DNA of 64,000 nucleotides from a virus (IMGVR_UViG_3300016480_000208), one strand, 5' to 3'; positions 36,136 through 60,461 are shown, counted from the stretch's first letter. Notes: a model not told the origin generated them from the letters alone. Made by a program: numbers and translations.

Positions 36136-36229
36136 ACGATGTATCTCCGAGGCAAAGGTGGATTAGAAGTTAGTTTTCTCTCTCACCTATATAGTATAGC
36201 AAAAATGAAGGTATGCTGCAACTATTATT

Positions 36230-37400
36230 TTAAATCCGGTAGGGCATCTACTAGTTGCTCTATGGAATCAAAATACTTCATAGGGAATCTCTTATCCCTA
36301 TACACTTTAGCTCTAGTTTCCTAGTGCCGGTATCCAGTTCCACCAGATAAAGCTAGGTCTATAGCAATAGGTGTGCGCTTACCGCTCATAAGTCTTTGTA
36401 TGCGTCCAATTAGCTGGGCTATTAATGACTAGTTATCACTACTAGAAGTGAGTATTAGACAAGACAGTATACTTAGTGATAGACCTTCCGAGAATATAGA
36501 AGTAGTGGATACTACGCCCTAGTACTTACCTTCTTGTACTTGTTCCAATATGGTAGCCCTGTTTTTCTCCTCGGATATAATCAATGCCCACTTCTTTCCA
36601 GTTACCTCTTCTAGCACACTGGCAAGTGTTCTGGAGAAATCCACACGGTCTGAGGTGATAAGTGGTATGTGGCCACTAAAATGGGCCTAAGCCTACAGGC
36701 AAACTATCTCCTTTAGATAAACATCCTGGCTATATAGGTCTGTAACCTAGTTGGCCCAACCACCCGGCTGTGCTGTTAGGTTAAACTTCTACTTGGAGTA
36801 GGTTCTGAGAACTATAGGAATCATCACGTTCTCTTCCTTCGGAATTACAACGTTCTTGCTGAACCACCCGGGGAATAAAACGTGCTTACCGTCTTTACGG
36901 ATTAAGGTACCACTAAGGCCTAACTTAATACCGGCAAAACTATGCACTAGTACTTTTTCAAAGGTAGATGCTGGGCAATGGTGCACTTCATCCATAATTA
37001 GTAACCCAAATTCCCTACATAAGGATTGGGCATGCTTTTGTACGGTTTGTATGTTACCAATTACTATAGGAGTGGAGATATCTACCTGGCCACCGCCGAT
37101 TATAGCTGGTGTAAAGCCAAAATGTTTTCTAACCTCTTGCACCCACATGTCTCGAATATCAGTAGTCGTGGTGACTACCAGCGTCTTTAATTGCAATTTG
37201 TGGGCTATAGCTAGCTAAGTAATAGTTTTACCAAACCCAGGTATTGCGTTAATAATCCCGTTTAGCTAAAATCCACCTATCTTAGGGTAACTAAGGAACT
37301 ACCCCATAGCCATACTCTGAGACTCCCTCAATACAAATAGGGGGTCTGGGATTTTCTACGAAACCTTAGAAGTTCTATCTACAAACTCAAACTGACAACC
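36230..37400 (-). CDS. SF2 helicase (DExH) with in-frame TAG codons; boundaries approximate and it may extend toward 37915.
   Basis: Walker A IPGFGKT just upstream of fragment 36789..37196, which carries DEVHH and SGT motifs. Several TAG-only interruptions. Confidence 0.4.
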
Positions 37401-38146
37401 CTAACCTGTTACTCGTTTGCACATGCCAATTATGGTATCTATGTGCCCAGAAGGGAAGGAGTATGCCTGTTTTGAGGTAGAGATAGTCTTAATCTGTAGC
37501 TAGATTGGCTGAAACTTCTGATTAGGGCTCTGCTTGGGCAGTATAAACGTAAGAAGCTCTACCTACTGCTGATGCTCTTCAGGCGTAAGCCGCATATATA
37601 CTTGGTCTGATATAACCACCTTTCGTGGCTAACTTAAAGCTTCTTTCTACGTGAACAATTCTACGTGTCTCCAAAATCTAAAGGCATATAACACATTGCC
37701 CCTAGCTTAACTAGGTAAACATATAAGTAGCCCCTAGAAGCAACTACACGCTCCAGGCCTCCTTCTGGGAGTTTGTACCACATTTCTACCTTACTATCCT
37801 CTAGCTGGTTTGCCTTTATAATTTTAGCCGGCACTACGTCATAGTAGGTACTTTTTACCCACTTAAATACTCTGCCTTGGTTATTTATAAAGTTTAGTGT
37901 TCCACTATTCGCCAACTCCTACAAAGTATTGCATATCTTGTGCAATGGGTACAGCCTATATGATGTCTTGTTGTTTACCTACAACCAGAGACGCCTTTCG
38001 GTATAGGTCTAACCGGGGGCGTTCTAGTCGTCTAGTAAGTATTTCTCCATAGCTGAGGTTATGTACGTTTTTGGCCCATCCTTTTCTATGCTTACATACT
38101 ACCTTAAAGGAAATAGGGGCAAATTTGCCCCTATAAAGTTCTTCAA

Positions 38147-40587
38147 GCTCATAGTGCAGCTACGGTTGGGTACTGTTTCTGCAACTTACCACAAGAGTAG
38201 TCGAAGGAACCACCGTCCTCGGAGTCAGAATCAACGCCCATAGGCGCCCCTGGGATCATTAGTCCACGGTCTTTCTGTATATTACGTACAACAAGCTCCA
38301 AGTATTCTTCTACGCAGGACTCATGAACTTCTGCTACTACTGAGTCATGTACCATACAAAGGATTTGAGCATCCAGCTTACGGGCAGTAATCTCTGCTTC
38401 TGCGTCAATAGCCCCCAGCAGCAGGATATCAGAAGATGCCCCTTGGATGATAGCGTTAAACCCAGAACGCAGCTCTTCGCCGATAACACCACGGTCACTA
38501 GAGGTGATGTTACGCAGACGGCGCTTACGACCAAAGTGGCTATAAATGAAGCCGTGGTTCAGAATCTGGTTGTGGCATTCGGTGATCCACTGCTTCAAAC
38601 GAGGGAATCGCTTGAAGTACACAGCGATGTATTCTTCTGCCTTTTCCTTGGTGCAAGGAACGTATGGCTCACCTGTTTTTAGGCTCTGCTCAAGTAGCGC
38701 TTCGTTAACCGCTTGAGCTACTTTTGCTGGGCCAGAACCATACAAGATACCAAAGGTAATCGCTTTAGCTGCTTGACGCAAGGCTGGGAATAGCTTTTTA
38801 ACCTCTTGAGGCTCGCAAGACAGCCCGAATACCATGTGTGCAATGTTACTGTGGAAGTCAGGATACTTAGCAGGGTCTCTAGTCATATTGATAAAGACTT
38901 GTTGCAGGCCTTTATCACCAGACAGGGCTGCTGCTACCCAAACTTCCGCAGTGGTCATATCCACCGCCACAATCCTGTAACCCTTTCTGGCTTTGATACA
39001 CCCTTTTACTAGTGCATCATCACGAGGAAGCTGTTGCAGGTTTAGGGTACCACTGGAGGACAGACGACCAGAGGTTGTGGTGTGCAAGTGGAAGCCAGTA
39101 CGTAGACGACCATCGAGGTCTACGTGATCCAGTGCTTTCTCGATGTAGGTGTTTAGCAGCTTAGAGAACTTACGGTACTCTAGGATTGCTTTAGCAATAC
39201 TGGAATCTTGGTCTGATGCCAGTTTTTCTAGAGCTTCCGCGTTGGTAGAATCCTGCTTGGTATCAGTCATGATACCTGTAGGTGTCAACCCTTCGTAATC
39301 AAACAGCAGTGTGCGCAGTTGAACAGGAGAGGCTGGGTTAAACGCGGAACCTTTATCAAGTTCGTACCTGTTTACGCTGTCGAACTGGTAGATTCGTTCT
39401 TGTGCTTCACGAATTTTTTCTGATACTACGGCACTTGCTTCTTTAAGCCGAGAAACGCTGAAAGGTACACCACGAGACTCGATACGCTGCAAGAAGCGGT
39501 TGCCCGGAATCAAGATGTTGGTGTAAAGAGAGTTCAGTTGTGGATTTTTACGAATAAGCGGCAAAAACTTATTGTGCAGACGCAGGGTAGCGTCAGGGTC
39601 TTTTGCTGCGTATACCTTAAGGATGTCCCAAGGGATAAGGTCGTAAGTGAAATCCTCTTTCTTGACATTATGCAGGGTGCAGTATGACTTCTTAAATTCT
39701 TCCAGCTCTAAGTCGTAGTCACCCAAGTCAGTGTAGTCGATGGCCAAAGACTTCAAACCATGCGTACCTGTACGTTCATCAAGTGTATAATGCTGTAACA
39801 TGGTATCGTGCATACGGTTTTCATCATATGCCTTGTTAAAGTCGATACCAAAATGGTACTCAAACCAATGTTGGTCAAACTTCAAGTTATGGAATACAAT
39901 GTCCGCCGGAGAATCAAAGATTTGTTGCACCATACCAATCAGTTTAGTATCAAACAAATCAGCGTGGATATACCTCCCATAACCAGGGGTGTCACAGAAG
40001 CACAAACCTAGTGGGTAGCCTTTACGGGCGTACAAAGCTGTGGTTTCCGAGTCCATACCAACCGCAGAACTTTTACCAGATAGGACGTTTTGCACAACTT
40101 GACTAAGGTAGCTTTCCGCTTCTTTGTAGTCCGTGATACCTTCCCAGCTGCCTTCTGCTTTTGCTTGCCCAGAAACCAACAACTGACGAATCTTGGAAAT
40201 TGTTTTTTCCATTACCGGCTTGTTCTCTGGCCGGAAAGAGAGCACAGCCGGAGAAATAGACGCAATAAACCTTGCATTAGCCCAGGCATCTTTGGGAGGG
40301 GCCATAAGCCCAGTGTAATCTGTTACTGAGGTAACTCTACTATACTCTTTCAAAGCCTCAGAACCTACTAGAATAGTGAAATCGTACTCCATAGGGTTAA
40401 ACTGAATGTCGATGTTCTTCTTGGTCGGCTTCTTGATAGAAGGGTCAGAACATAGATGGTAAACATCTACTGGGATAGTCCCATTGAAGTAAATGTTAGA
40501 ATAGTTCTGTCGGTTAGGGCTTTTATCTACTACGGCAATTTTAGGTACTTTGGTCATATACTCAGGTCTCCTTAAACCTCTGTCCAA
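38147..40587 (-). CDS. pol: Family A DNA polymerase with 3'-5' exonuclease domain (T5-type).
   Basis: 812-aa ORF with a PolA palm (RRxxKxxNFGxxYG-like RQAAKAITFGILYG) and an N-terminal exonuclease. No in-frame TAG; ends TGA. Confidence 0.85.
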
Positions 40588-40589
40588 TC

Positions 40590-41435
40590 AATCTCATCAA
40601 TAAACTTCTTCAAGTAGTCTACCTCGGGCTTACTAAGTCCTCCAGGGTCTCCACCTTGTGGTAGTATATGGTTCTATACATATACTCTGAAGTGCTTAGA
40701 TAGCACTTTTGACAAGTTCTGAGCAGCAGCATTACCTGCGTCGTCATTATCCATCAATATCACTACTTTTTTCGTATCTGCGGCCACTAAGGGTAGGCAC
40801 TTTTGGTCAACTGTTCTGTGGGTAACAGTTGAGGCACCAAATACCTAAGTCACGTTAGATACCCCTTTGTCCCTAAGGTTGGCAACATCAAATATGCCCT
40901 CCACTAGAATAGTTACCCCATTACTCTGCACAGCAGGATAGAAGGGTATTTTTGCACCATCTGGATAGGCCAAATACTTTGGCTTTAAGTCGCTATACAT
41001 AGAACGCTAGATCACCGCACATAGGTTCCCCGTTACTAAGTCTGTAATCGGGAAACACAGTCGCCCCTCCCAGTTAGAATGAGTGAACGCCTCTAGTTTC
41101 TTGTAGGTATCCTACGATATGTCTCTGTAGGTCTACGCAAAAGGCTCAATAGACGGCGGCAAGGTTATGCCCACTGAGAAAATGTTAAGCTCCTGTAATT
41201 TTCTCTTGAATTGTCGTATCTTTGGGGAAACTTTTGGTAGTTCCACACCCAAGTACTCATGAATCGACTTACCTTTGAAGCCACACGCATAGCAGTGATA
41301 TACCCCTAGTTCTTTGTCAATGTACATTGATGGTGAAGAGTCTTCGTGTTCTGGATTTAAGCACAGCACCAGATAGTCCTTACCTTTTTCCTTAAAAGGG
41401 ATGCCGCGCTATTCTAATAGCTCTTTTACAATCAT
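40590..41435 (-). CDS. DnaG-like primase (zinc-binding plus TOPRIM) with in-frame TAG codons.
   Basis: MIVKELLE*RGIPF...CYACGFKG zinc ribbon. The listed ORF 41133..41369 ends on TAG and the frame continues. Confidence 0.5.
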
Positions 41436-41507
41436 ATTACCTCACTTTCCAATATTATACACCTAAAAAGACCAGCGATCAAGATTTATAACAAAAAAGG
41501 AGATGAT

Positions 41508-42867
41508 TTTACTCATCTCCTTGTTCTTCTTGTGGCACTTTGACTATGCTTTGTGGGATAATTTTCATGTAGTCCCACGACATATGGGTCACGAAGTTGA
41601 TACCTGCTGGGAGGTTACGCAACTTAGCTACTGTAAGTGTCAGAACTGAGCCAGATTTATTAATGGTGAACTACATATCCACCTAATCTAACAAACCTTT
41701 CTACATACGAGTGGCCCCGTTTTCATCTACTTGATACGGTGAAATAACTAGAACTTTTTGCTTCCTGGCTATTGTGTTCTTAAGCATAGTTGCTAACTGT
41801 GTTTGAACCTTCCAATCCAGCCTATCAAGAGTTTTTACGCCCTCAAGTATAAGCTGGTTTACATAGTCAACAATTACCGTGGTTACTAGCCCCGGGTATT
41901 TTGCCTTTAATGTCGTTAGTACTAGATCAATGGTGGAGATTTTTAGATTCCTATCATCAATTACTACTATCGGTAAAATCTGTTTTAGGTGTTGCTTGAA
42001 ATACGTTTCGTGGCTTTGGAATAGGTCCCTCGTAGGAGGCTCTTCTAGTGCTTTTAGTTGATCCATTAAGTAATCAAAACCACCTTCGTACTGTGCGGCT
42101 TGAGAAAGCTACAACTGTACTTGTTCAAAGTGATTCATAGTACCATTACGTAACGCGGAGAATCTAACACCACTAGCTGTCTACCAAAATCTCTGGTATG
42201 TTTCCTCGGCGGTCATTTCGATAGTGCAGTACGGGGCTATTTTACCAACCATCCAGTGGTGGGCACAGATGTTAATACAAAGTGCTGATTTACCAACTCC
42301 TCGGTATCCACCTAGAAGAATAAGCTCTTCTTCTTTTCCTCCCAGAAACTCCATATCCCAGCGCTCGGATAACCCAAGGGTTGAGAACTAGGTTTGGGTT
42401 TCTTCCTCCGCACGAAACATTGAAATTTCGTTACCGTAGAATACTTTGTCAGAACTGTCTATCTCCTCTTCCACTAGCATCTAGATGGCCTAGAGTTCCT
42501 CTACTATCTCCTGTGGCCCTAACAAGGGTAAGTTGTCTGCAAACTTGTCTAACTTCTCGATAGCGATATGCTGGATGTGCTCGGCTTCTAGTTGCTCCAA
42601 CTATAGGGAGATTGGTACGTCCGGTAGCTCCACCTTTTCAAGTGCTAGTACCTAATGTAGGACGGAAGAGTTTCTGGAATTAAACAACTTTAACTCTTCA
42701 AAAGAGGGGACTCTGGCATGTGCTTCGTAGAAGTTATTTACTGATCGATATACGCTGGAGAATAGGCCCGAGAAGTACTACGATTTCAGCTTTTCCATCT
42801 AAGCTAGCTTTTGCTCCTGACTATCAGACTATAGCAAAAGCCCTAGAGTTGTGCTTTGTAGTGACAT
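41508..42867 (-). CDS. DnaB-family replicative helicase with ~11 in-frame TAG codons.
   Basis: Walker A GGYRGVGKSAL. The listed 41701..42066 fragment ends on TAG, and reading through reaches TAA at 41508. Confidence 0.5.
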
Positions 42868-42886
42868 CTAAGCTCCTTGAGTAATA

Positions 42887-42920
42887 AAACAAAACAAAAA
42901 AGGAGGCACTTAGGCCTCCT
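42887..42920 (-). terminator. Rho-independent terminator after gene 42947..43722.
   Basis: aggaggc actta gcctcct plus a T-run (minus strand). Confidence 0.7.
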
Positions 42921-42946
42921 TCTTTATAGCTCTGAAGCCAGAACTT

Positions 42947-43722
42947 TATTACTCAGCAGCTTCTTTAGCCTTCTTGGCGTCAGCAGCAGCCTTTTTAGCT
43001 GCTCCATCATAGTCAACAGCGCTCAGGCCACGACGGGTCAACATGGACTTGACAGAACGCTCGCCCTTGCCGGTTGCTTCGACCAGCTGTGCAACGGTCA
43101 TTTCAGCAACGTCCAGACCTTCGAACTAATCGGCAGAGGCCTTACGTGCGCTGGCTTCTTGCTTCGGAATAGCAGCGATGCGGCCTTCGCGATGCAGGGA
43201 CAGAGCCTTACCACGAATCTGCGGCAGGGTACGACCCAGGGCAGCAGCAACTGCGTCGATAGAAGCGCCTTCATTGGCCATCTCTACGAACACTGCTTCT
43301 TCTTCTTCGGTATAAGTACGAACTACTTCCTTCTTCGGGGTAGCCTTAACCAGAGAGGTTAGTTCCTCAGACAGAACCTTACCTTGTACGGTACGAGCAT
43401 TAACTTCGAAGGACAGTTGACCAGCCAGTTCAGCATAGGTAAACACACCAGGATTTGCGTTCAGAACGCTATGCAGTTCAGCAGTCTGCTCTGGAGACCA
43501 AGCGGTCTTTTGGGCTGACAGAGACTCTACAGTATAACCAGCCTTACGCAGCTTAGCTGCTACAGAGCGAGAAGTAGTGTCCAGCTTTTCGGCCAGGTCA
43601 ACAACAACTTCTTTGCTTACGCTTGCCATACCGTCAACAGTGCTGAACAGGGTATTGGTCATTTCTTCGTTCCACTTCTTAGCCATTTGTATTTCTCTCC
43701 ACAAGCTCTTTAATAGAGCCAA
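42947..43722 (-). CDS. Hypothetical Ala/Lys-rich protein; the annotated ORF end at 43126 is a TAG and the frame continues to TAA at 42947.
   Basis: 'cta' at 43126-28 followed by 59 more sense codons (...KKAAADAKKAKEAAE) and then a hairpin terminator. Confidence 0.45.
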
Positions 43723-44458
43723 TAGTTATTCCTAGTCCTACAGCTTTCTTATAGGAGCTGGATGTTGTTTTCGATTCATCTTCGCATACGAGGAAGTTAG
43801 TTGCCTTAGTTACTGTGTCTTTTACAGTGTAACCTAAAGAGGTTAAATAGGTTTTCGCTTCGTCGCGGTTTTTAAAGTCATTCAAAGAACCAGTAATTAC
43901 TATGACTAAGCCGTTAGTAAGAGGTGTTACATTGGTTGGGGCTTTAGTACTAGGAACTACTCGGTCTTCTAGGTCAAACACCCAAGGGTTTTCAATAGAG
44001 AACTCTTGAAGTAAACCGGTCAACCTAGGGGTTACTACGTCCTTCATTGTGAAGGCTTGTTCCAAAGAACTGGCTTGTGCTGCTAAAGTTTTTGAAGCAG
44101 TAGCACCAAAGCCAGTAATGGCTAAGCCTTCTAGGAACTTGTCCATTGGAATCTTGGTCGTCTTGTCTACCAACTCTTTGTGTAGCTTATTAGCCATGAG
44201 GTCTGAAAAACCCGCATTTATAAAGTCTTCGACAGTTAGACCAAGAAATTCAGGTATCGTTAATACCGAAATTTTTTCCAATGTTGCTGGGCCAAATCCT
44301 TTTATTGATAGGGCTTTGCAAAACTTTTCTAGTCGCTTGCCGGTCTGGGCAGCACAACCAGATTTATTCGGGCATTTCAGCGTAACCGCAATTGGTGACA
44401 CTACCCGTTCCAACAGTGTTCCACAGCTTGGACACTGTGTTGGTGGAATAATCTTCAT
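43679..44458 (-). CDS. ligB: NAD-dependent DNA ligase, C-terminal part (Zn finger, HhH, BRCT); ligB-like.
   Basis: CPSCGTLLER zinc finger and BRCT-like C-terminus. Confidence 0.6.
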   Translation of the reverse strand: MKIIPPTQCPSCGTLLERVVSPIAVTLKCPNKSGCAAQTGKRLEKFCKALSIKGFGPATLEKISVLTIPEFLGLTVEDFINAGFSDLMANKLHKELVDKTTKIPMDKFLEGLAITGFGATASKTLAAQASSLEQAFTMKDVVTPRLTGLLQEFSIENPWVFDLEDRVVPSTKAPTNVTPLTNGLVIVITGSLNDFKNRDEAKTYLTSLGYTVKDTVTKATNFLVCEDESKTTSSSYKKAVGLGITIGSIKELVERNTNG

Positions 44459-44636
44459 TGAAGCTCCTTCACACTTTGTACATACAGTATATCAAGTTTT
44501 GGGGAAGTGAGCAATAACTATTTCATATTAAGGAGAACCCAATCCTCTAGGGCGGTGCTCTCCAAAGCAGATAAACAGTATAGCCCTAAAGAACATCCAC
44601 GTCAACCGCAGTTTAAAATGCTAACGGCAGTATTGG

Positions 44637-45602
44637 TTAATCCGCTCTCCCAACAATAGTTGGTATAATGTCCCCCGCCCGGATAACCGCCACCTTACAC
44701 CCAATTTCCAGACCCAAGGTCTCGATATACGTGATGTTGTTCAAAGTAGCTCGGCTAATTGAGGTTCCCTTAATATCTACTGGTTCCAAAATGGCCACTG
44801 GCGTGACTCTGCCAGAGGAGCCTACTTGCCATACTACATCCAGTAGGGTTGTTTCTACCGGAGGTTCGTCCTCTTTTACAGCATAAGCTCCCCGCGGGAA
44901 TTTGGACGTGTAGCCTAGCTCTGCAAACACAGTGTTATCGTCCACTCGGTAAACGATACCATCCTGTGGCGCAGTATCAACATATGGGTGATGAAGTGCT
45001 ACATCAAATCCTTGGGAGTCTAGGATTTGCATATCAGCGCTGTAGCTGTTTGTCATTGCTGGACTTAGTCCGTAGGCAATGAAAACCACGCCATATTCGT
45101 CAAATACCTTACGGGCTTCGTTAAGGTCTTTTTCCGTAACTAGCTTACCAGAAACAATATTTCTGGAGTTAGCCGAGGCTCTAGTGGCCACCACTTCGCC
45201 AGTTACTTGTACTAGGCCTTTTACACCAAAAAAGGTGTGGGGGATTTGAAGCAGCTTGATTTTCTCGGTTACGTCTTGACCCTTCTCTCCATCACCGCGA
45301 GTAGTGGCACGCACCAACCGTCCATCAAGATAAACCAGTTCAACAGCGTTGCCGTCGTACTTCGGAGATTCCACCATAGACTTGCCTGCACAGGAGGTGG
45401 GAATCTTATCTCCACGTTTCGGATACACTTTTTGCAGAGAGTACATTGGGTATGCAAGAGGGATGTCTCCAGTAGGCCCAATACTTTTTTCTGCATTGTA
45501 GTACATAACCAAAGCATCATACTGCTCGTCGGACAATTCCGGAGTGCCTTTAGCATATAGTTCTTGGTGATGCTTAAGTAGCTTTTCGATTTCTAAATTC
45601 AT
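44637..45602 (-). CDS. ligA: NAD-dependent DNA ligase, N-terminal adenylation part; ligA-like.
   Basis: KYDG adenylation motif and NAD-ligase Ia/adenylation-domain similarity. It ends with a genuine TAA, followed by a 178-nt gap with a promoter-like block. Confidence 0.65.
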   Translation of the reverse strand: MNLEIEKLLKHHQELYAKGTPELSDEQYDALVMYYNAEKSIGPTGDIPLAYPMYSLQKVYPKRGDKIPTSCAGKSMVESPKYDGNAVELVYLDGRLVRATTRGDGEKGQDVTEKIKLLQIPHTFFGVKGLVQVTGEVVATRASANSRNIVSGKLVTEKDLNEARKVFDEYGVVFIAYGLSPAMTNSYSADMQILDSQGFDVALHHPYVDTAPQDGIVYRVDDNTVFAELGYTSKFPRGAYAVKEDEPPVETTLLDVVWQVGSSGRVTPVAILEPVDIKGTSISRATLNNITYIETLGLEIGCKVAVIRAGDIIPTIVGRAD

Positions 45603-46168
45603 AAAGTAGCTTCAACTCCTCATTAGATAGGATGTTGGCAAAAGCTGCCAATAACCCATCTATGGTCTCGTCTGTATAAGGTAAGGTAATGCCATCTTTA
45701 GTGGGGAAGTATTCCTCATCCCAAGTTGACCAGAACCACCTTCGGATACTGAGGTATAGTTTTCCATTGAACTCAGATACTACCATTCTTATGGTATCTT
45801 GTGTATCCTTGTATTGGCAGATATCAATGGAAAAACATTCAGTAGAATCGGGGCCAAGTTCTGGCCCCGCCTAGGGAAGAGACATTAGAACGCTGAATTG
45901 AGCGGCTGGATGCTATTCACGAAACGTGGTTGCACAGCAAAAATACGCTCATTAGTGCGGTCATAGATAACCAGATGGGGTTTACCGCCCAGAGCTTCTG
46001 CCAGCTGAGTACGGTGTCTATCAGTGATTTGGGGTTCCCACTTACCAGGAGTTACAGTAGCTTGAATGAATTGGCGCTTACCACCAACGTACATTTCAAG
46101 GAAAAATTCATCCAGCTCTACGGCTTTAGCTTTCAGTACGGAAAATTGCATGTAGTCTCTCCTAGTTA

Positions 46169-46567
46169 TTACTTATTGAAGTTGCCGTTTTGAATGGCAG
46201 TGGCAAGGTATTGAGCTGCTTTGCCGGTCAGCTTACCAACGATTTCTTGGTCTACATCTTCTACACCGATAGCTTCCAGAGCTGCGGTCAGGGCTTTATG
46301 GGCGCTATCTTTGTTTACACGACCACCACCGGCTCCAGCACTAGCGGATGCGGCTTTAGGCTCTACCTTTTTAAGGACGTAGACTCCTGCATTAGTCAGG
46401 ATAACACGGGCACTATTCGGGGTGAGGCCGAACTCGGTAGCAATGCTATTCACAATTTCCATTGTGACTTTGGGACGTTCTTCCTCGGGATACGCACTGA
46501 TATCCTCTTTGTAGGTCTCGATTACTTGCTGTTTCAGTTCATCGGTGATAGGTACTGGCTTAGACAT
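46169..46567 (-). CDS. Hypothetical protein.
   Basis: 132-aa ORF with a promoter block upstream. Confidence 0.4.
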   Translation of the reverse strand: MSKPVPITDELKQQVIETYKEDISAYPEEERPKVTMEIVNSIATEFGLTPNSARVILTNAGVYVLKKVEPKAASASAGAGGGRVNKDSAHKALTAALEAIGVEDVDQEIVGKLTGKAAQYLATAIQNGNFNK

Positions 46568-46653
46568 TTACTTTCCTCATTTTGTTGTTAAAGAGTTTTT
46601 CTTAATTCATGCAGATATTATATCGTGAATTGGTGTTTTCAGCAATTTTTATT

Positions 46654-47004
46654 TTACAATGGAGTTTGGTATAGAACAACTTCGTGTAGATTCCCTATAC
46701 GGGCATTGGCTAAATTTCCATCCCTAGGTGCCAGAGCTTTCTGTGGGTGTAGGATACGACCGTGCAGTACCCAGACAATCAAAGCTATAGACACTCGTTG
46801 TCCGTAAATAAACAGGAAGGGATTGCCGAACTTATCATGAGTCCCAGCAACCCCAGTTGCTCCGTACTCATTACCATCCCTCCAGCGCAGACAGGTACTG
46901 GAAGTTTCGTCGTATATAAAGAGTTCGTCTAACTCCTTTTTGGTAAGTTTCATCAATGTCTCACCCACAAAAATTAATGGGGCGTCTTTGCCCGCAGGTT
47001 GCAC
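46654..47004 (-). CDS. HNH-family homing-endonuclease-like protein.
   Basis: ...YGQRVSIALIVWVLHG...DGNLANARIGNL resembles HNH_3-type endonucleases. Confidence 0.45.
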   Translation of the reverse strand: MQPAGKDAPLIFVGETLMKLTKKELDELFIYDETSSTCLRWRDGNEYGATGVAGTHDKFGNPFLFIYGQRVSIALIVWVLHGRILHPQKALAPRDGNLANARIGNLHEVVLYQTPL

Positions 47005-47142
47005 CTTCTCTACAGGCGGTACAGCAGTAACCTACCAGCCTCGTAGTACCCCACTTATCCGTGTGTCGTATCGGACTACCTTCATACGCTGCTATTAACC
47101 TATTACAGTAGTAGCAGCGTGCAAACACGCTGCCGTACATAG

Positions 47143-47847
47143 TTAGTCTCTCCGATTGGCGGACATGCGAGCTTTTCGCATAGTCTCATAAAGGATTTCC
47201 TTGATCTCGTCAGAGGACATGCTAGTAGTAAGCGACTTGAGACTTACCCCCAAGGCTTCCAGATGCTTCAAGGAACCCAGGTCCCACCAGTGATAGTTAA
47301 CGTTGCGATGTCTTTCGCTGTCGAGAAGGTATACGCGGTACTGACCGTCTCCGTGGTGCTTACGAACTTCACCAATACAACCGTAGCCAGAAACCCACAC
47401 AAGCTCCCCTACATCAAAGGTATCTTCTGGGCCTTGCTTGTAGCACTGGTCAGGCATTTGAGCAGGCCACAAAGGATTCGGAGTTTCCGTTGTGCGAAGC
47501 AGTGCACCACTACGCCATAGAGCCATGCGAAGTGCTTCTGTCGGGCGGCACAGGCGTTTGGACAAGTCTGCCAGCGACACACCATTTAGGTAGCCTTCAA
47601 TCAGGCTTTCTAGCTCAACGCCTTCAATGGGGGTGCCCCGCTTTAGCTTACGTCGAGCAGTATCGCGCTCCTTATCTTCGTTGTACTTCTCGATAATATC
47701 GGCCAATCGCTTGGTGTTGTAGGCAATGCCTAGAGTTTCACACGCCAGCTTTTTAGTTGCCCCATCCTGCAACATTTTGATTACTTGCGGGATTAGGGCT
47801 TCATTGTAGTCTTGCTTAGGGGCACGGGCCATATTAGCTTCCTCCAT
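47143..47847 (-). CDS. Hypothetical protein.
   Basis: 234-aa ORF with a promoter block upstream. Confidence 0.45.
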   Translation of the reverse strand: MEEANMARAPKQDYNEALIPQVIKMLQDGATKKLACETLGIAYNTKRLADIIEKYNEDKERDTARRKLKRGTPIEGVELESLIEGYLNGVSLADLSKRLCRPTEALRMALWRSGALLRTTETPNPLWPAQMPDQCYKQGPEDTFDVGELVWVSGYGCIGEVRKHHGDGQYRVYLLDSERHRNVNYHWWDLGSLKHLEALGVSLKSLTTSMSSDEIKEILYETMRKARMSANRRD

Positions 47848-48229
47848 TCAATTTATACAATAATTATAGCAATTATTCAGGTCGTGGGCAATAGATATTT
47901 TAAATCGGGATAACGCCTGATTAGTTGCTCCAGATTTTTACGTAAGTTTGGCTCATAGGGCTCCAACAACGCTGGAGCCGCAAAGAAAGCCACACTGAAA
48001 GGGTACACTTTACATATCATCCGTTAGTTACCTCGGCCAGAACCTATTTTTAGACCGTTCCAGCTCCACCAGTTTTCGATAGGTCTTTTTAAACATACCT
48101 TTGTTATTTTTCTGTTTCTTAGAGTACATCCACGGGTTTAAATCGTTATATACACTGAGGTACTGGGACAGGTATATTTCATGGAGTTCTGATAAATAAG
48201 TAGCACGTCTTGACATTTTCCATCCTTAA

Positions 48230-51157
48230 TTATAACTCGAGCATTTCCGAGTAATCTACAGGAGATTCTTCCTTAAGTGCAGAAGGAAGCGGTAGACTAT
48301 TAAATGAGCAGTACTTCTCTACGTTAAGTAGGGCGTTTGCAGGTTCCCATACCCAATGTTTAGCATCCAAAGGAATACCTAACATGCTGAACAGTAGGGT
48401 AGGAATTTTGTTGTTATAGTGTACACCAGCCCTAAACAGCTTTGGCAGGTTTACAAGACACAAGTCAATAAACTTGGCCTTCTTCCAGCCAGCCTCTAAT
48501 TGGGCATCCATGATTTGACATAATTCGTCCCATAGCCCTGGAATCATCATGAATCGGTATGCCTTTTCAGCCTTCTTCAAGGTGTTATCCTCTAGGAAGT
48601 CAATAATCATATCTACAGTGATGTCTTCCACCCCTGAGAAGTGTTGGACAGCTTTGTAGATCATTTGAGCGTTATTAATCCTTCGTGTATTTGGGATATT
48701 TTTACTCATATAGATTTTGGTGGCGTATAAATTCAAGTGCTCTTCTGAGTACATTGCCAATGCTTTGTACTCCAGCAAGTTCTCCTCACACGGAGGGAGA
48801 ATAGTAACCTTGCTAGTTTTCTTGAGCATGTTGTAGCGGACGTAGAACTGGTACTTATTATGCTCACGCATCTTCCTTAAAAAGAAGATGGTTTGCAAAT
48901 CACCAACCATACCCTTATCAAAAGACGACAAGCACTTAGCGGGAGTAGACACGCCACCGTTGGCATCACCAGAAGTCCAGTAATGGACGTAAATCGGGTG
49001 ACGCTCTCTGCAGATAGCCTGAATACGAATTGCTGGACTGTTTAAGCCAGATGATGTAATACAGTACACATGGGTAAAGTACTTCTGGAAGTCAACACCA
49101 GAGGTCATACTTGGGCTTGTAATACAGATATCCACACATAGCTCTTTTAGGGCTTTGGTGGGTACAGCAGCATCCATGATCATCCGCACGTCTTCATCAT
49201 CCCTACTCTCAGCATGAATCTCCACAATAGTTGGGACCCTAACACCATTAGCAATACAGTGTTGCTGGATACCGTAAGAAAGTTCGTCAATCTGTTTAGG
49301 GCCGTAGTCCGTTACTACTAAGATACGCATTGGTAGACCCGAGCTAGCGTTTGTTAACATATGGCCAACAATATCAGGCTCAGTCTTGTGCTCATACACT
49401 TTAGCGTCTAGGTGAGTAGGAACCTCCGACTGGTAGGTTATAGTGGGTTTTGTATGCCCCACCAAGGCTGAGTAGGCTTCCACAGTCTCGCTAGAGGTGT
49501 CCCCGTCTGCCAAGATCACGTAATCACACTGAATCATCAACAGATACAGCGCGTTAAGGATACGGTCTCGGCGCTCAGTGTCAATGATAGCACTGTCAAG
49601 TAGTTCTTGGATGGTACTGTCGGACTCGTCAATAAACAAGGTTTTGGTGCCAGGAATACCAGTAAATCTCTCCGCAACTTTATGCAAGCTGTGGATAGTG
49701 GTAGCGATACCATTCTTGTTTATTTCAAAGCCTAGCTTGGTGTATACATCCAAATCCATTGCAGAAGCGATTGATTCTACCAGAGTAACACGGTTGGTGA
49801 CAGCTAGAATAGAGCCCAGCTTGCCACGCTTCTGTAGTTCGCGAACAGAGTAGGTTTTGCCCATGCCCAGCGATGCTTTCAGAAAACTGAGCTTACCACG
49901 TTCAGGGAACGTGTCAGGTAGCACAAGCTTGCCCATAGGAGAAGGCTCACAATCGTGAATTTGGTGCTTCCACTTATTCTCCTTAGGAAAGGAGACACTA
50001 CGAGCAACGTCGGCAATAGACCTAGCCATAGCAAAGCGGAAACCGTTATGTAGGTAATCTTTGACCTTTTTCGTACTGCCATGACGCTTAGAATAGCTCC
50101 GTAGAATTGGTGTAAGAATATTTCGCTCAAAGTCTTTGATATCCAGACCTTCTTGCAATGCGTCAAAATAAAGGGTGTGTACAATTTTGATGTACATGTT
50201 GTCACTTACTTTACCTGTCATGATATCATTACACTTTCTCTGCAAGTTTGCAGGCAGCTGCGCTACAGCTTTATCAACCTCTGGATTAGCCAAAACAGGA
50301 ATACCGTCTAGTTTAGCCATGATTTCCAGGTGGTGCTTATTCAGCTCCTCGTACTCCGTTGCCTCAATAGCCGATTCCAGAGCTTTTGGGATAGTAGCAC
50401 TACAGCCAAAAGTATAGTACAGTCTATCTGTACTATGGAAGGGGTCAGCTAGCCCCTCAAGGGTTGGTGGGGCCGTAATCAGAATACGCGCTGGAGAGTA
50501 GGTAGTATTGTCGAGGAATCCTTGCAGTTTTTGGTTAATTTGGTCGATCAAAAAACGAATCTGACCACCAGTAAGTTCATGCTCATTCACAAAGTAGAAG
50601 TGCGCACGAATACCGGAACTGATACCTGCCGAAGAGGATGCCAGAACAATGTGACCCATAGTCTCAGGGAAAAATTCTGGGAACTCTTGATGCAGTAGAC
50701 CTACGATGTATTTGCCAACCTCTGGCAAATCAATTGGGTTGGGCGCAGACATATCAACCCAAGAGTCAATGTCAAATGCTATTAGTTTAAAGGGGGCATT
50801 GTGACTATCGAATGCTACCTTAGTACGTGGAACAAGTGTATCTTGCCCCACCTTCTTTTTACCCACCACCATTAACAGGTTTGGGTTATTTTGAGATTTG
50901 CGTAGAAATTTTACAGCACTCTTGATACTGTCAGGATTTGCTTCCTGTACTACCTCGTAGTAGAATTTCTTCCTTAGATCGCCTGATTCTGCTTTTAGCA
51001 GAAACGGCACAGGCATACTATCTTCCAGCTTGAAGGTAGACGTTATGCTTTTTGTAAAGCTAGGGGTGTGAGTCAAAGGTACATACTCTTCCCTCATGCT
51101 ATTATCTGAGGTTCGGATGTACCTACGCACCAATCTTGGAGCTAGGATAGAGAACAT
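48230..51157 (-). CDS. Large P-loop NTPase (Walker A LGMGKTY, Walker B FIDESD); putative replication helicase or primase-helicase.
   Basis: 975-aa ORF with no in-frame TAG. Confidence 0.55.
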   Translation of the reverse strand: MFSILAPRLVRRYIRTSDNSMREEYVPLTHTPSFTKSITSTFKLEDSMPVPFLLKAESGDLRKKFYYEVVQEANPDSIKSAVKFLRKSQNNPNLLMVVGKKKVGQDTLVPRTKVAFDSHNAPFKLIAFDIDSWVDMSAPNPIDLPEVGKYIVGLLHQEFPEFFPETMGHIVLASSSAGISSGIRAHFYFVNEHELTGGQIRFLIDQINQKLQGFLDNTTYSPARILITAPPTLEGLADPFHSTDRLYYTFGCSATIPKALESAIEATEYEELNKHHLEIMAKLDGIPVLANPEVDKAVAQLPANLQRKCNDIMTGKVSDNMYIKIVHTLYFDALQEGLDIKDFERNILTPILRSYSKRHGSTKKVKDYLHNGFRFAMARSIADVARSVSFPKENKWKHQIHDCEPSPMGKLVLPDTFPERGKLSFLKASLGMGKTYSVRELQKRGKLGSILAVTNRVTLVESIASAMDLDVYTKLGFEINKNGIATTIHSLHKVAERFTGIPGTKTLFIDESDSTIQELLDSAIIDTERRDRILNALYLLMIQCDYVILADGDTSSETVEAYSALVGHTKPTITYQSEVPTHLDAKVYEHKTEPDIVGHMLTNASSGLPMRILVVTDYGPKQIDELSYGIQQHCIANGVRVPTIVEIHAESRDDEDVRMIMDAAVPTKALKELCVDICITSPSMTSGVDFQKYFTHVYCITSSGLNSPAIRIQAICRERHPIYVHYWTSGDANGGVSTPAKCLSSFDKGMVGDLQTIFFLRKMREHNKYQFYVRYNMLKKTSKVTILPPCEENLLEYKALAMYSEEHLNLYATKIYMSKNIPNTRRINNAQMIYKAVQHFSGVEDITVDMIIDFLEDNTLKKAEKAYRFMMIPGLWDELCQIMDAQLEAGWKKAKFIDLCLVNLPKLFRAGVHYNNKIPTLLFSMLGIPLDAKHWVWEPANALLNVEKYCSFNSLPLPSALKEESPVDYSEMLEL

Positions 51158-52586: not shown

Positions 52587-53294
52587 TTAAAATGAATTTA
52601 AGTACTGTATAAGTTCGTATAGTTGTTGATCGGTTAATTTGAAAAATTCAGTACCCCCATTGTTAACTGTGGGATTGAACTCGTTATACGCCTAGTACTT
52701 TTTATGCAGCTATTTTTCTAGGTTCCTGGGACTATCAACAGTTATGTGGTGTACATACTGTAAGCTCCCACCAATATTTGCTATCCTATTCTTTATATTA
52801 TTGGTAATACCTATTTTTATAAGGCCTGTATTTTCACACCTAAAAACGTAAAGAATGTTTTGATTTTGCACGGAACACTTTGGACACCCATGTCCTTTTA
52901 AGTGGTGGTTGGGTGTCTGGGAGAATACACCATGCTCTGGACATATGATTAATACCTCAGTACGTCTGTTTACATATACTACAGCAGAATACTGGTAAGT
53001 ATTACCGTGAACCTATCTGAAATCCTGTATACATTGTTTGGTAGTTTTAAGTACATTACCCTAACATTTTGGACACCCAGTACCTTTTAAATGATCATGT
53101 GGTGTCGGGTAGAAATCACCATGAACTCTACAGGTTACGACTACACGGTCTCTAGATTTAACATACTGCGTCTTAGTGTAATCGTAGGTATCACCGTGCT
53201 TTTCCTTGAACTTATTAATATACCACAGATTCTTCACCTACTGGGGCTATTTACTTGATAGCTTTCCAGTTTTTGTTAAATACTGTTCAAACAT
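52587..53294 (-). CDS. T5orf172-domain protein with two GCPKC zinc-ribbon repeats (GIY-YIG-related), 6 in-frame TAG codons.
   Basis: Manual translation MFEQYLTKTGK...HLKGTGCPKC*...HLKGHGCPKC...LIKIGITNNIKNR...; RBS caaggagaaaaagcATG. Confidence 0.45.
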
Positions 53295-60363: not shown

Positions 60364-60369
60364 ATTTCT

Positions 60370-60455: not shown

Positions 60456-60461
60456 ATTTCT

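What the first reader, a model, noticed from the sequence alone, without database searches (positions are those of the whole stretch)
38147..51157. Bimodal TAG usage: large replication enzymes are TAG-free while neighbouring genes are TAG-dense
The 812-aa DNA polymerase, the 975-aa Walker-A/B ATPase, NadV, Prs, ThyA and RNase H contain zero in-frame TAG. Adjacent genes (DnaB-like helicase ~11, primase, NrdA 6 or more, NrdB 4 or more) and the far denser genes at 56.4 kb and 17.8 kb are full of them. Most genes are on the same strand, so this is not a simple early-versus-late strand split. It may reflect genes that must be translated before the suppressor accumulates, or different evolutionary origins (recent acquisitions not yet recoded).
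Basis: inference. Interest (0 to 1): 0.7.

Follow-up and report, generated by a model that had tools for sequence, protein, structure and literature searches.

The report
Gene-selective TAG-to-alanine recoding in phage
This T5-like Aeromonas phage reads the stop codon TAG as alanine using its own tRNA, and it keeps TAG strictly out of one conserved set of genes (DNA polymerase, origin-binding ATPase, ligase and others) while tolerating it freely in others (helicases, primase, lysis and most virion genes). Because phage and host are cultured, this gives a system in which the reasons phages recode stop codons can be tested.

Summary
Across 73 window genes, in-frame TAG is strongly overdispersed (G=413, 72 df; 45 zero-TAG genes against 14.7 expected). 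Pol (812 aa) and the 975-aa ATPase have none, although they sit next to primase (6), a DnaB-like helicase (13-14) and D10 helicase (14-16).

The window is a Shenzhenvirus (T5-like Aeromonas phage). TAG is a sense codon, and it most likely encodes alanine rather than glutamine: the phage tRNA(CUA) carries G3:U70 and A73, and homolog alignments favour Ala by a wide margin.

The TAG-free/TAG-rich split is conserved in a relative whose synonymous sites are near saturation (r=0.92). It applies only to the reading frame, and it tracks use of other codons served by the phage's own tRNAs (rho about 0.7). Pre-early genes and the major capsid protein also lack TAG.

Best reading: TAG is a codon that depends on a phage tRNA. 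Selection excludes it from genes translated before, or faster than, the phage tRNA supply allows, and tolerates it elsewhere at roughly the frequency base composition predicts. "Recent, not-yet-recoded acquisitions" is not supported. Gene-class-biased recoding is known; the alanine assignment, and this split inside a T5-type replication module, appear unreported.

The parts
62447..62521 (+). tRNA with anticodon CUA; an alanine-type amber suppressor
   Evidence: ARAGORN. Acceptor stem GGGGCAU/AUGCUCC gives G3:U70, with discriminator A73. These are conserved in TS3 alongside compensatory changes at acceptor pairs 5-7. Its nearest relatives by sequence are the tRNA-Ala(UGC) genes.
62534..62609 (+). 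tRNA-Ala(UGC), immediately downstream of the suppressor
   Evidence: Shares the acceptor-stem top GGGGC/GCUCC, G3:U70 and A73 with the suppressor.
60277..63101 (+). First part of the phage tRNA array (15 tRNAs inside the window)
   Evidence: In relatives the array continues with Leu(UAG), Leu(UAA), Arg(UCU), Arg(CCU) and extra Met/Ile(CAU) tRNAs.
38149..40587 (-). DNA polymerase (T5 pol homolog, 58% identity); 0 TAG
   Evidence: It has 62 GCN codons and 126 one-step TAG-precursor codons. It is also TAG-free in TS3, Akh-2, AhSzw-1 and AhP_Mru1.
48230..51157 (-). 975-aa T5.108-like protein, annotated 'replication origin binding' in relatives; 0 TAG
   Evidence: It has 65 GCN and 157 precursor codons. 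No Pfam family matched. The TS3 ortholog is also 0 TAG.
44637..45602 (-). NAD-dependent DNA ligase subunit A (adenylation + OB domains); 0 TAG
43679..44458 (-). DNA ligase subunit B (BRCT domain); 0 TAG
42949..43722 (-). D5 DNA-binding protein homolog; 1 TAG against 42 GCN
47143..47847 (-). D2 helicase homolog; 0 TAG
46169..46567 (-). D3 DNA-binding protein homolog; 0 TAG
41509..42909 (-). D6 DnaB-like replicative helicase; 14 TAG (13 from the ATG at 42867)
   Evidence: The TS3 ortholog has 16-17 TAG. Relatives annotate it as fragments under the standard code.
40572..41435 (-). DNA primase; 6 TAG
   Evidence: The TS3 ortholog has 11 TAG.
37634..38152 (-). T5.123 homolog (172 aa); 6 TAG
36225..37694 (-). 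D10 helicase homolog; 16 TAG (14 from the ATG at 37595)
   Evidence: The TAG at position 160, just after the Walker-A GKT, aligns to Ala in 55 of 56 homologs.
32267..34519 (-). NrdA; 7 TAG here but 0 in TS3 and Akh-2
30950..32071 (-). NrdB; 4 TAG here but 0 in TS3 and Akh-2
26084..26872 (-). T5 holin (T5.041) homolog; 16 TAG
   Evidence: The TS3 ortholog has 19 TAG.
17798..18370 (-). 190-aa hydrophobic protein with no family match; 17 TAG (61% of Ala-like codons)
   Evidence: The TS3 ortholog also has 17 TAG.
21456..22250 (-). 264-aa protein of unknown function; 15 TAG
56359..58527 (+). 722-aa protein of unknown function; 36 TAG
   Evidence: Only 25% identical to its TS3 counterpart, which has 35 TAG.
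52587..53345 (-). Homing-type endonuclease (phrog_681/559); 6 TAG against 3 GCN
   Evidence: The TS3 homolog has 15-16 TAG.
2734..4350 (-). NadV (nicotinamide phosphoribosyltransferase); 0 TAG, rare-codon index 0.03
4597..5376 (-). Prs (ribose-phosphate pyrophosphokinase); 0 TAG
22703..23551 (-). Thymidylate synthase counted from M41; 0 TAG
29536..30009 (-). RNase H; 0 TAG
42894..42927 (-). Terminator-like hairpin (14 pairs plus T-run) between D5 and D6
   Evidence: a consensus scan only.
41454..41522 (-). Terminator-like hairpin after D6 (41497-41522), followed by a promoter-like site (41454-41482) upstream of primase
   Evidence: a consensus scan only.
38113..38134 (-). Terminator-like hairpin just downstream of pol
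   Evidence: a consensus scan only.

Best explanation
The window comes from a T5-like Aeromonas phage (genus Shenzhenvirus) in which TAG is a sense codon. It is read by the phage's own tRNA(CUA), which carries alanine identity elements, so TAG most likely means alanine.

TAG is then the most extreme of the codons that depend on the phage's tRNA array. The host has no tRNA for it, so any TAG translated while the suppressor is absent or limiting ends in termination by release factor 1.

Selection therefore removes every in-frame TAG from three groups of genes:
- pre-early genes, whose homologs in T5 are expressed before the tRNA genes have entered the cell;
- a conserved first-line set of early genes: pol, the T5.108-like ATPase, LigA/B, D2, D3, SSB, RNase H and the nucleotide/NAD salvage enzymes;
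- the highest-output late genes: major capsid and tail tube.

In all other genes nonsense mutations at alanine-tolerant sites are harmless, and TAG drifts up to roughly the frequency that base composition predicts. These genes are the DnaB-like helicase, primase, D10, SbcCD, dNMP kinase, holin/spanin/endolysin-like genes, homing endonucleases and most virion genes.

Shown here: the heterogeneity, its conservation, its frame-specificity, its co-variation with other phage-tRNA codons, the absence of any transfer signature, and the Ala assignment from tRNA identity elements and alignments.

Inferred: that limiting suppressor supply (timing and/or output demand) is the selective agent, that RF1 competes at TAG, and that two-step DNA entry works as it does in T5.
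For: 1. TAG is a sense codon. Full-length T5 homology runs across TAGs in D6, primase, D10, NrdA/B and the holin. Coding density is 93% with TAA/TGA-only stops. Relatives annotated in the standard code show these genes shredded into fragments.

2. TAG = Ala.
- The tRNA has G3:U70 and A73, conserved in TS3 with compensatory stem changes; its nearest relatives are tRNA-Ala(UGC) genes.
- Likelihood at 276 TAG sites against T5: lnL Ala -737, Ser -799, Gln -849. TS3 against T5 (305 sites): Ala -843, Ser -885, Gln -923.
- At sites at least 70% conserved in about 40-56 standard-code homologs, TAG aligns to Ala at 5 of 8 and to Gln at none. Control Gln codons align to conserved Gln at 10 of 14.
- Ala content of TAG-rich proteins falls in the range of their T5 orthologs only if TAG is counted as Ala.

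3. The heterogeneity is real: G=413, p about 1e-49.

4. It is frame-specific. TAG-free genes carry 0 in-frame TAG but 8.4 and 4.6 per kb out of frame. TAG-rich genes carry 10.7 per kb in frame against 10.7 and 5.6 out of frame, so TAG there is tolerated rather than enriched.

5. It is conserved. Window against TS3, per-gene TAG fraction r=0.92; zero/non-zero table 29/2/5/21, p=7e-9. Akh-2 shows the same pattern.

6. It co-varies with ATA/CTA/TTA/AGA/AGG use: rho 0.71 in the window and 0.70 among TS3 early genes. Class medians in TS3 are pre-early 0.02, early TAG-free 0.24, early TAG-rich 0.57, late 0.54. The phage array encodes tRNAs for these codons.

7. The major capsid protein has 0-2 TAG and a rare-codon index of 0.03-0.07.

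8. TAG-free and TAG-rich genes are interleaved in the order primase 6, pol 0, T5.123-like 6, D10 14, with no terminator-like site between primase and pol.
Against: - No expression, proteomic or tRNA-charging data exist for these phages, so neither the alanine assignment nor the timing/output argument has been measured.
- Shine-Dalgarno strength is not weaker in TAG-rich genes (median -7.9 vs -6.4 kcal/mol), which does not fit a simple 'TAG-rich means weakly expressed' picture.
- There is no obvious reason why a replicative helicase and primase should be needed later, or in smaller amounts, than the polymerase.
- Some TAG-free genes use many other rare codons: 18472-18972 has an index of 0.57 and LigB 0.43.
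- NrdA/NrdB carry TAG in one clade and none in the other without any matching shift in rare-codon use, so some of the pattern is historical contingency.
- A tRNA with a CUA anticodon could be partly mischarged with Gln by GlnRS (known for some amber suppressors; from memory).
- Among close relatives the likelihood separates Ala and Ser poorly; in one direction Ser scores slightly better.
Confidence: 0.6

Rival explanations
1. A dedicated translational timer or dosage switch. TAG is positively selected in particular genes (lysis genes, nucleases, helicases) to delay or cap their expression until the suppressor tRNA has accumulated, as proposed for lysis genes of TAG-to-Gln recoded gut phages.
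For: - The holin homolog (16 TAG), a spanin-like gene (7) and an endolysin-like gene (3) lie in the early region and carry TAG.
- SbcCD and D10 are TAG-rich in both clades.
- Per-gene TAG density is highly conserved.
- Of TAG sites that remain Ala-coded in both lineages, 75 of 92 remain TAG.
- Borges et al. proposed this model.
Against: - In-frame TAG frequency in TAG-rich genes (10.7 per kb) equals the out-of-frame frequency, so nothing shows enrichment above what base composition predicts.
- TAG positions show only a mild decline along genes, with no strong 5' clustering.
- TAG is nearly ubiquitous across late genes of every function.
- High TAG-TAG retention is expected anyway, because moving between TAG and GCN takes 2-3 substitutions through non-Ala intermediates.
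Confidence: 0.2
2. Relaxed constraint only. TAG simply accumulates in fast-evolving, weakly constrained genes and is missing from slowly evolving ones, with no link to tRNA supply or timing.
For: - TAG fraction correlates weakly and negatively with protein identity to TS3 (rho -0.27, p=0.046).
- The densest genes are poorly conserved: the 722-aa ORF is 25% identical and the 190-aa ORF 46%.
- NrdA/NrdB TAGs sit at variable positions.
Against: - Many poorly conserved genes are TAG-free: 18472-18972 at 41%, 19251-19874 at 46%, 10546-10926 at 46%.
- Identity does not differ significantly between the classes (p=0.21).
- The holin (71%), D6 (73%) and primase (73%) are as conserved as LigA/B (72-73%) yet TAG-rich.
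- The much stronger correlate is phage-tRNA codon use (rho 0.7).
Confidence: 0.1
3. Different evolutionary origins. The TAG-free genes are recent acquisitions from standard-code phages, or from the host, and have not yet been recoded.
For: - TAG-free early genes have a somewhat different codon usage from TAG-rich ones (RSCU r=0.61).
- Some have a higher GC content (pol 0.46 vs D6 0.42).
Against: - The same genes are TAG-free in TS3 and Akh-2.
- 4-fold-site identity to TS3 is near saturation and equal between the classes (0.40 vs 0.35, p=0.53; pol 0.39, T5.108-like 0.42).
- Gene order matches T5.
- Pol's best match outside the genus is 58%, and IMG/VR holds no intermediate relatives.
- GC3 is equal between the classes (0.445 vs 0.443).
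Confidence: 0.03
4. A DNA-level or annotation artefact. Either TAG/CTAG is avoided as a DNA motif in some regions (for example restriction avoidance), or the 'TAG-rich genes' are pseudogenes or non-coding and TAG is still a stop.
For: GenBank records of all relatives are annotated in the standard code, with these genes in fragments.
Against: - Out-of-frame TAG is normal in TAG-free genes.
- Homology to T5 proteins continues across TAGs over full length, including essential replication and virion genes.
- 75 TAG positions are conserved with TS3 despite near-saturated synonymous sites.
- A cognate tRNA(CUA) is conserved.
- These are viable cultured phages.
Confidence: 0.02

Closest known systems
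Stop-codon-recoded phages using 'code 15' (TAG to Gln): crAss-like, Lak and other gut phages (Ivanova 2014; Yutin 2021; Borges et al., bioRxiv 10.1101/2021.08.26.457843; Peters et al. 2022, PMC9523058)
   Same: - The host uses the standard code.
- The phage encodes a tRNA(CUA).
- In-frame TAG is concentrated in late/structural and lysis genes and absent from a set of genes presumed to be expressed first.
- Standard-code annotation gives low coding density and shredded genes.
   Different: - The amino acid here is alanine by tRNA identity and alignments. Borges et al. report only TAG to Gln and TGA to Trp in phages whose code differs from the host's.
- The lineage is a cultured T5-like siphovirus of a gammaproteobacterium.
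- The TAG-free/TAG-rich boundary runs through the replication module, gene by gene, rather than between genome blocks.
- TAG density co-varies with a whole set of phage-tRNA-dependent sense codons.
Cook et al. 2024 (PMC11210395): prediction of translation table 15 for AhSzq-1, AhSzw-1 and Akh-2
   Same: The same genus is flagged as reassigning TAG. Coding capacity rises from about 56-59% to 83-84% when TAG is read through.
   Different: It is only a table entry from an automated gene caller that offers Gln as the sole TAG option. There is no analysis of which amino acid is used, of the tRNA, or of the per-gene distribution. Re-annotating with table 15 would place Gln where Ala is indicated.
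Alanine amber-suppressor tRNAs and the G3:U70 identity rule for AlaRS (Hou & Schimmel 1988; McClain & Foss 1988; recalled from memory)
   Same: AlaRS recognises the G3:U70 acceptor-stem pair independently of the anticodon, so a tRNA-Ala with a CUA anticodon inserts Ala at UAG. The T5 record itself notes that its tRNA-Ala becomes an effective amber suppressor when given that anticodon.
   Different: Those were laboratory constructs. Here the suppressor is a natural, conserved phage gene serving hundreds of in-frame TAGs per genome.
Phage tRNA genes matched to late-gene codon usage (e.g. T4; Kunisawa 1992; Bailly-Bechet 2007; Yang 2021; recalled from memory)
   Same: Codons read by phage-encoded tRNAs are enriched in late and less host-like genes, and are depleted in genes expressed first.
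   Different: Here the same axis includes a reassigned stop codon, which gives an all-or-none signature (zero versus many) instead of a graded bias.
UAG to Ala in some chlorophycean mitochondria (Hayashi-Ishimaru 1996; recalled from memory)
   Same: The same codon is reassigned to the same amino acid.
   Different: That is an organellar genome-wide code, not a virus running a code different from its host's and applying it gene-selectively.

Membership tests
Suppressor-tRNA-mediated TAG reassignment in phages | In-frame TAG inside conserved genes, with homology continuing across it | tested here: met
   T5 and other T5-like homologs align across TAGs in D6, primase, D10, NrdA/B, the holin and the virion genes.
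Suppressor-tRNA-mediated TAG reassignment in phages | Phage-encoded tRNA with anticodon CUA | tested here: met
   Window 62447-62521. Conserved at the same array position in TS3.
Suppressor-tRNA-mediated TAG reassignment in phages | Coding density is restored when TAG is read as sense | tested here: met
   93% of the window is covered by TAA/TGA-bounded ORFs on the coding strands. Cook et al. report 55.8% rising to 82.7% for AhSzw-1.
Suppressor-tRNA-mediated TAG reassignment in phages | Peptides spanning TAG positions detected experimentally | not testable with these tools
   No proteomic data were available.
Genetic code 15 (TAG = Gln) | TAG positions align preferentially with Gln in standard-code homologs | tested here: not met
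   Gln ranks 3rd to 5th. lnL Ala -737 against Gln -849 (n=276); 0 of 8 strongly conserved sites are Gln.
Genetic code 15 (TAG = Gln) | Suppressor tRNA with glutamine identity (weak 1:72 pair, G73; from memory) | tested here: not met
   The suppressor has G1:C72 and A73. The phage's own tRNA-Gln, and T5's, have U1 and G73.
tRNA-Ala (AlaRS substrate) | G3:U70 wobble pair in the acceptor stem | tested here: met
   GGGGCAU/AUGCUCC in the window and GGGGAUG/CAUCUCC in TS3. G3:U70 is kept while pairs 5-7 covary.
tRNA-Ala (AlaRS substrate) | Discriminator base A73 | tested here: met
tRNA-Ala (AlaRS substrate) | Actual aminoacylation with alanine | not testable with these tools
   Requires tRNA charging assays or mass spectrometry.
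Late-gene-restricted recoding (Borges-type model) | Recoded codon enriched in late, structural and lysis genes | tested here: met
   In TS3 and AhP_Mru1 late genes, TAG is mostly 30-75% of Ala-like codons. The holin homolog has 16-19 TAG.
Late-gene-restricted recoding (Borges-type model) | Early and replication genes are free of the recoded codon | tested here: not met
   D6, primase, D10, T5.123-like, SbcCD and dNMP kinase, whose T5 homologs are early genes, carry 4-28 TAGs. Only a subset (pol, T5.108-like, LigA/B, D2, D3, SSB, RNase H) is TAG-free.
Demerecviridae, genus Shenzhenvirus (T5-like) | Nucleotide identity and gene order shared with genus members and T5 | tested here: met
   96% identical to AhP_Mru1 and 92% to AhSzw-1/AhSzq-1 over 13 kb. 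The T5 gene order T5.108 through D10 is retained.

The most novel reading that the evidence does not exclude
Shenzhenvirus phages use a natural TAG-to-alanine code that has not been described for any virus. It is built on a duplicated tRNA-Ala, whose synthetase ignores the anticodon. TAG density would then act as an evolved translational licensing layer that stages the T5-type infection cycle. Polymerase, origin-binding ATPase, ligase and SSB can be made at once. Helicase-primase, D10, SbcCD, the lysis proteins and most virion proteins become translatable only after the phage tRNA array is expressed. The system exists as cultured phage-host pairs, so both the new code and the 'recoding as regulation' hypothesis can be tested directly by genetics and mass spectrometry.
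Probability: 0.3. Interest if true: 0.85.

Novelty: new variant of a known kind. Interest (0 to 1): 0.68.

Why it matters
1. It would correct the assumed code for a genus of cultured aquaculture-relevant phages. All GenBank records are annotated in the standard code and so have shredded genes, and the one published re-annotation assumes Gln. Either way, hundreds of residues per proteome would be wrong.

2. A TAG-to-Ala assignment would extend the known range of phage code changes beyond TAG to Gln and TGA to Trp. It also suggests a simple route to a code change: AlaRS does not read the anticodon, so a single anticodon change in a duplicated tRNA-Ala creates a faithful suppressor.

3. T5 biology offers defined temporal classes and two-step DNA entry, and these phages and their Aeromonas hosts are in culture. 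The open question of why phages recode stops (regulating timing, passive tolerance, or both) can therefore be tested experimentally, which has been difficult for uncultured gut phages.

4. TAG behaves like the other phage-tRNA-dependent codons. That links two subjects usually treated separately: phage tRNA arrays and stop-codon recoding.

Tried and rejected
- **Greedy six-frame ORF calling with TAG open** picked spurious antisense ORFs, because CTA-rich antisense frames stay open. I replaced it with strand-constrained calling.
- **TAG = Gln (code 15)** was my starting assumption. I rejected it after the alignments and the tRNA analysis.
- **Searching for intermediate relatives.** The pol protein alone found only AhSzw-1. 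A pol profile found about 70 T5-like loci, all at 58% identity or less and without TAG use. No closely related standard-code genome is therefore available for comparison.
- **Exact search for the suppressor's anticodon arm in IMG/VR** found only AhSzw-1 and one unrelated phage with a 90-nt tRNA(CUA).
- **MFE folding of the suppressor** did not return the cloverleaf. I drew the cloverleaf by hand, and ARAGORN accepts it as a tRNA.
- **TAG context.** The +4 and -1 bases differ only mildly from those around GCN codons, and there is no strong positional bias within genes, so nothing points to a special readthrough context.
- **Shine-Dalgarno strength** did not separate the classes in the direction an expression-level explanation predicts.
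- **Literature searches** for T5 time-course expression data, and for UAG-to-Ala in phages, found nothing usable in the held library.
- **PHROG/Pfam searches** gave no family for the 722-aa, 190-aa and 264-aa TAG-dense proteins or for the 975-aa ATPase.
- **Not attempted:** structure prediction, searches of the large protein databases, and the metagenome scan. None would bear on the codon-distribution question.
Full report
**What the window is.** The region 38147-51157 is 96% identical to Aeromonas phage AhP_Mru1 and about 92% identical to AhSzw-1 and AhSzq-1. It is about 74% identical to TS3 and Akh-2. All are Demerecviridae, genus Shenzhenvirus. The polymerase is 58% identical to that of T5 and its relatives. 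Gene order follows T5 in inverted orientation: T5.108, D2, D3, LigA, LigB, D5, D6, primase, pol, T5.123, D10. NrdA/B, Thy, RNase H, the holin and other T5 early-region homologs follow on the same strand. A tRNA array starts at 60.3 kb and includes a tRNA with anticodon CUA at 62447-62521. GenBank annotations of the relatives use the standard code: D6, primase, D5, D10 and almost all virion genes appear as small fragments, while pol and the 975-aa protein are intact. Cook et al. 2024 list three of these genomes as predicted 'translation table 15' in a supplementary table, with no further analysis.

**Checking the observation.** I called genes with TAA/TGA as the only stops, on the coding strands (93% coverage).
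- Zero TAG: pol, T5.108-like, NadV, Prs, RNase H and ThyA. For ThyA this applies from M41; the three TAGs in the longer ORF lie upstream of where homology begins.
- TAG-containing: D6 13-14, primase 6, NrdA 7, NrdB 4, the 722-aa ORF 36, the 190-aa ORF 17.

Over 73 genes of at least 80 aa, the heterogeneity G is 413 on 72 df. There are 45 zero-TAG genes against 14.7 expected, and the maximum in 10,000 simulations was 27. NadV, Prs, ThyA and RNase H lie outside the stated interval. Inside it, the TAG-free genes are pol, T5.108-like, LigA, LigB, D2 and D3, plus D5 with 1 TAG. The TAG-free state is frame-specific: TAG-free genes carry 0 in-frame TAG but 8.4 and 4.6 per kb in the other two frames. 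The constraint therefore acts on translation, not on the DNA.

**Which amino acid TAG encodes.** I expected Gln. Instead, at window TAG positions T5 has Ala at 17 of 66 sites (background 7%) and Gln at 4.
- *Likelihood test.* Using substitution frequencies taken from the same alignments, Ala is favoured strongly. One lineage genome against T5 (276 sites) gives lnL Ala -737, Ser -799, Gln -849. TS3 against T5 (305 sites) gives Ala -843, Ser -885, Gln -923.
- *Conserved sites.* At sites at least 70% conserved among 40-56 distinct standard-code homologs of D6, primase and D10, TAG aligns with Ala at 5 of 8 and with Gln at none. Examples are D10 position 160, next to the Walker-A GKT (Ala in 55/56), and D6 position 413 (Ala in 40/40). 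Control Gln codons map to conserved Gln at 10 of 14 sites.
- *The tRNA.* Its acceptor stem GGGGCAU/AUGCUCC gives G3:U70, and its discriminator is A73. The TS3 copy keeps both while pairs 5-7 change in a compensatory way. The nearest tRNAs by sequence are tRNA-Ala(UGC) genes, one of which lies 13 nt downstream. The tRNA-Gln genes have U1 and G73 instead.

G3:U70 is the anticodon-independent identity element for AlaRS (established knowledge, recalled from memory). The T5 record notes that its tRNA-Ala becomes an effective amber suppressor when given that anticodon. Between close relatives, TAG alternates with many residues because new TAGs can only arise by single-step nonsense mutation from codons such as CAG, GAG, AAG or TCG. 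Reaching TAG from GCN takes 2-3 changes. Borges et al. state that only TAG to Gln and TGA to Trp were seen in phages whose code differs from the host's. I found no report of UAG to Ala in a phage in the held library.

**How general and how old the partition is.** In TS3 (a complete genome) and in the rest of AhP_Mru1:
- *Pre-early homologs* (dmp, A1, A2) have 0-1 TAG. A1 in AhP_Mru1 carries a single TAG, and its position relative to the true start was not checked.
- *Late genes* nearly all use TAG for 30-75% of Ala-like codons. The exceptions are the major capsid protein (0 in TS3, 2 in AhP_Mru1) and the tail tube protein (3-5).
- *Early genes* are split. The TAG-free set is pol, T5.108-like, LigA/B, D2, D3, SSB, RNase H, Frd, Dut, NadV, Prs, NMNAT and PnuC. 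The TAG-rich set is D6, primase, D10, SbcC/D, dNMP kinase, holin, homing endonucleases and several proteins of unknown function.

The per-gene TAG fraction in the window correlates with that of the TS3 ortholog at r=0.92. The zero/non-zero table is 29/2/5/21, p=7e-9. Akh-2 shows the same pattern. The clear exception is NrdA/NrdB: 7 and 4 TAGs in the window clade, none in TS3 or Akh-2, all at variable positions. By parsimony this is a recent gain. None of about 70 other T5-like loci in IMG/VR uses in-frame TAG in D6, primase or D10, so the code change is derived within this genus. T5 itself ends only 3 of 74 long ORFs in TAG, so little TAG-stop usage had to be lost.

**What distinguishes the two classes.**
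- *Origin does not.* 4-fold-site identity to TS3 is near saturation and equal between the classes (0.40 vs 0.35, p=0.53; pol 0.39, T5.108-like 0.42, D6 0.36, primase 0.33, D10 0.42). GC3 is also equal.
- *Genome position and transcription unit do not fully explain it.* TAG-free and TAG-rich genes are interleaved in the order primase 6, pol 0, T5.123-like 6, D10 14. No terminator-like site lies between primase and pol, whereas hairpins flank D6 and follow pol.
- *Codon usage does.* TAG-rich early genes resemble late genes (RSCU r=0.87) more than TAG-free early genes (r=0.61). They are enriched in ATA (0.39 vs 0.11 of Ile codons), CTA, TTA, AGA, AGG and TCA. The phage array encodes tRNAs for these codons, and pre-early genes almost never use them (index 0.02; GC3 0.63, towards the 61% GC host mentioned).
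- *Gene by gene,* the rare-codon index correlates with TAG fraction at rho 0.71 in the window and 0.70 among TS3 early genes. Examples are pol 0.17 and T5.108-like 0.25 against primase 0.50, D6 0.47 and D10 0.56.
- *The major capsid gene* avoids both TAG and these codons (index 0.03-0.07) although it is a late gene.
- *In TAG-rich genes* the in-frame TAG frequency (10.7 per kb) equals the out-of-frame frequency, so TAG there looks tolerated rather than selected for.

**Interpretation.** TAG is best seen as the extreme member of the phage-tRNA-dependent codons. For ordinary rare codons, a shortage of the phage tRNA slows decoding. For TAG it means termination. That would explain why exclusion is absolute in some genes while other rare codons are merely reduced. 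On this reading, selection removes TAG from genes translated before the tRNA genes are present or productive (pre-early and a first-line early set) and from the highest-output genes (major capsid, tail tube). Elsewhere TAG accumulates through nonsense mutations at Ala-tolerant sites.

The selective agent is inferred; there are no expression or proteomic data. Several observations do not fit neatly:
- SD strength does not differ in the expected direction.
- A few TAG-free genes use many other rare codons.
- It is unclear why the helicase and primase should tolerate dependence on the suppressor when the polymerase does not.

A dedicated timer role for TAG in lysis and nuclease genes remains possible, but the frequency data do not require it.

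**Comparison and novelty.** Gene-class-biased use of a reassigned stop, enforced by a phage suppressor tRNA, is a known kind of system (Borges et al.; crAss-like phages). TAG reassignment in this genus has already been flagged computationally. Three things appear new:
- the alanine assignment and its tRNA-Ala origin;
- a partition that cuts through a T5-type replication module gene by gene and is conserved despite near-saturated synonymous divergence;
- the quantitative link between TAG use and the rest of the phage tRNA-dependent codon set.

I rate it a new variant of a known kind. Its interest is increased because the phages and hosts are in culture.

Noticed in passing
L009 631-704 (AhP_Mru1 42131-42204), about 0.4 kb beyond the window's right end: The close relative carries a tRNA with anticodon UCA (an opal-suppressor type) in the array, annotated 'suppressor tRNA'. 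TS3's annotation has none at that position. In the window TGA still behaves as a stop: about a quarter of genes end in TGA, and there are ATGA stop/start overlaps. Its role is therefore unclear.
   Followed up: partly
window 30950-34519 (NrdB, NrdA): NrdA and NrdB carry 7 and 4 TAGs in the window/AhSzw-1 clade but none in TS3 or Akh-2. All sit at variable positions (E, S, T, G, I, A, R or P in TS3). This looks like a recent spread of TAG into previously TAG-free genes.
   Followed up: partly
window 52587-53345; TS3 16144-16872; L009 34945-35667: Homing-endonuclease-like genes (phrog_681/559) have the highest TAG share of all, at 67-80% of Ala-like codons. They also have very low GC (0.36) and sit at different genome positions in different phages. 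Mobile selfish genes appear fully adapted to the phage's private code.
   Followed up: partly
window 56359-58527: This 722-aa ORF has 36 TAGs and no PHROG family. It is only 25% identical to the TS3 gene at the same position. It is rich in G, Y, N and S, which resembles a fibre or receptor-binding protein, and it lies in the early region next to NrdD.
   Followed up: partly
L009 44112-47197; TS3 29-4091 (pre-early region, outside the window): Pre-early genes (dmp, A1, A2 homologs) have GC3 0.63 and overall GC 0.56, against 0.44 for the rest of the genome, and almost no ATA/CTA/AGR codons. Their codon usage leans towards that of the 61% GC host and differs sharply from every other gene class.
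   Followed up: partly
window 53317-53456: Divergent near-perfect sigma-70 consensus promoters lie in the intergenic region between the two coding-strand blocks: 12/12 on the '-' strand and 11/12 with an extended -10 TG on the '+' strand.
   Followed up: no
window about 47.9-48.2 kb compared with L001/L002: The window's 38147-51157 interval is 1.2-1.4 kb shorter than the matching stretch in AhSzw-1 (14,254 bp) and AhP_Mru1 (14,433 bp). Those relatives have extra small ORFs between D2 and the T5.108-like gene.
   Followed up: no
window 60277-60455: Two tandem tRNA-Tyr(GUA) genes open the tRNA array. TS3 has one at that position, and in Akh-2 one is annotated as a pseudo-tRNA.
   Followed up: no
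L082 6730-6819 (IMGVR_UViG_3300033072_000678): An unrelated metagenomic phage contig (GC 0.39) carries a 90-nt tRNA(CUA) whose anticodon arm is identical over 17 nt to the Shenzhenvirus suppressor. Its length implies a long-variable-arm tRNA type.
   Followed up: partly
L048-L054, L077 (metagenomic T5-like contigs): A group of near-identical distant T5-like contigs shows a single TAG inside the alignment to D10. It may be a stop at the end of the alignment. I did not examine it.
   Followed up: no
window 34516-35139: A DNA methyltransferase (phrog_799, 2 TAGs) lies between PhoH and NrdA. It has no T5 counterpart in the T5 comparison.
   Followed up: no
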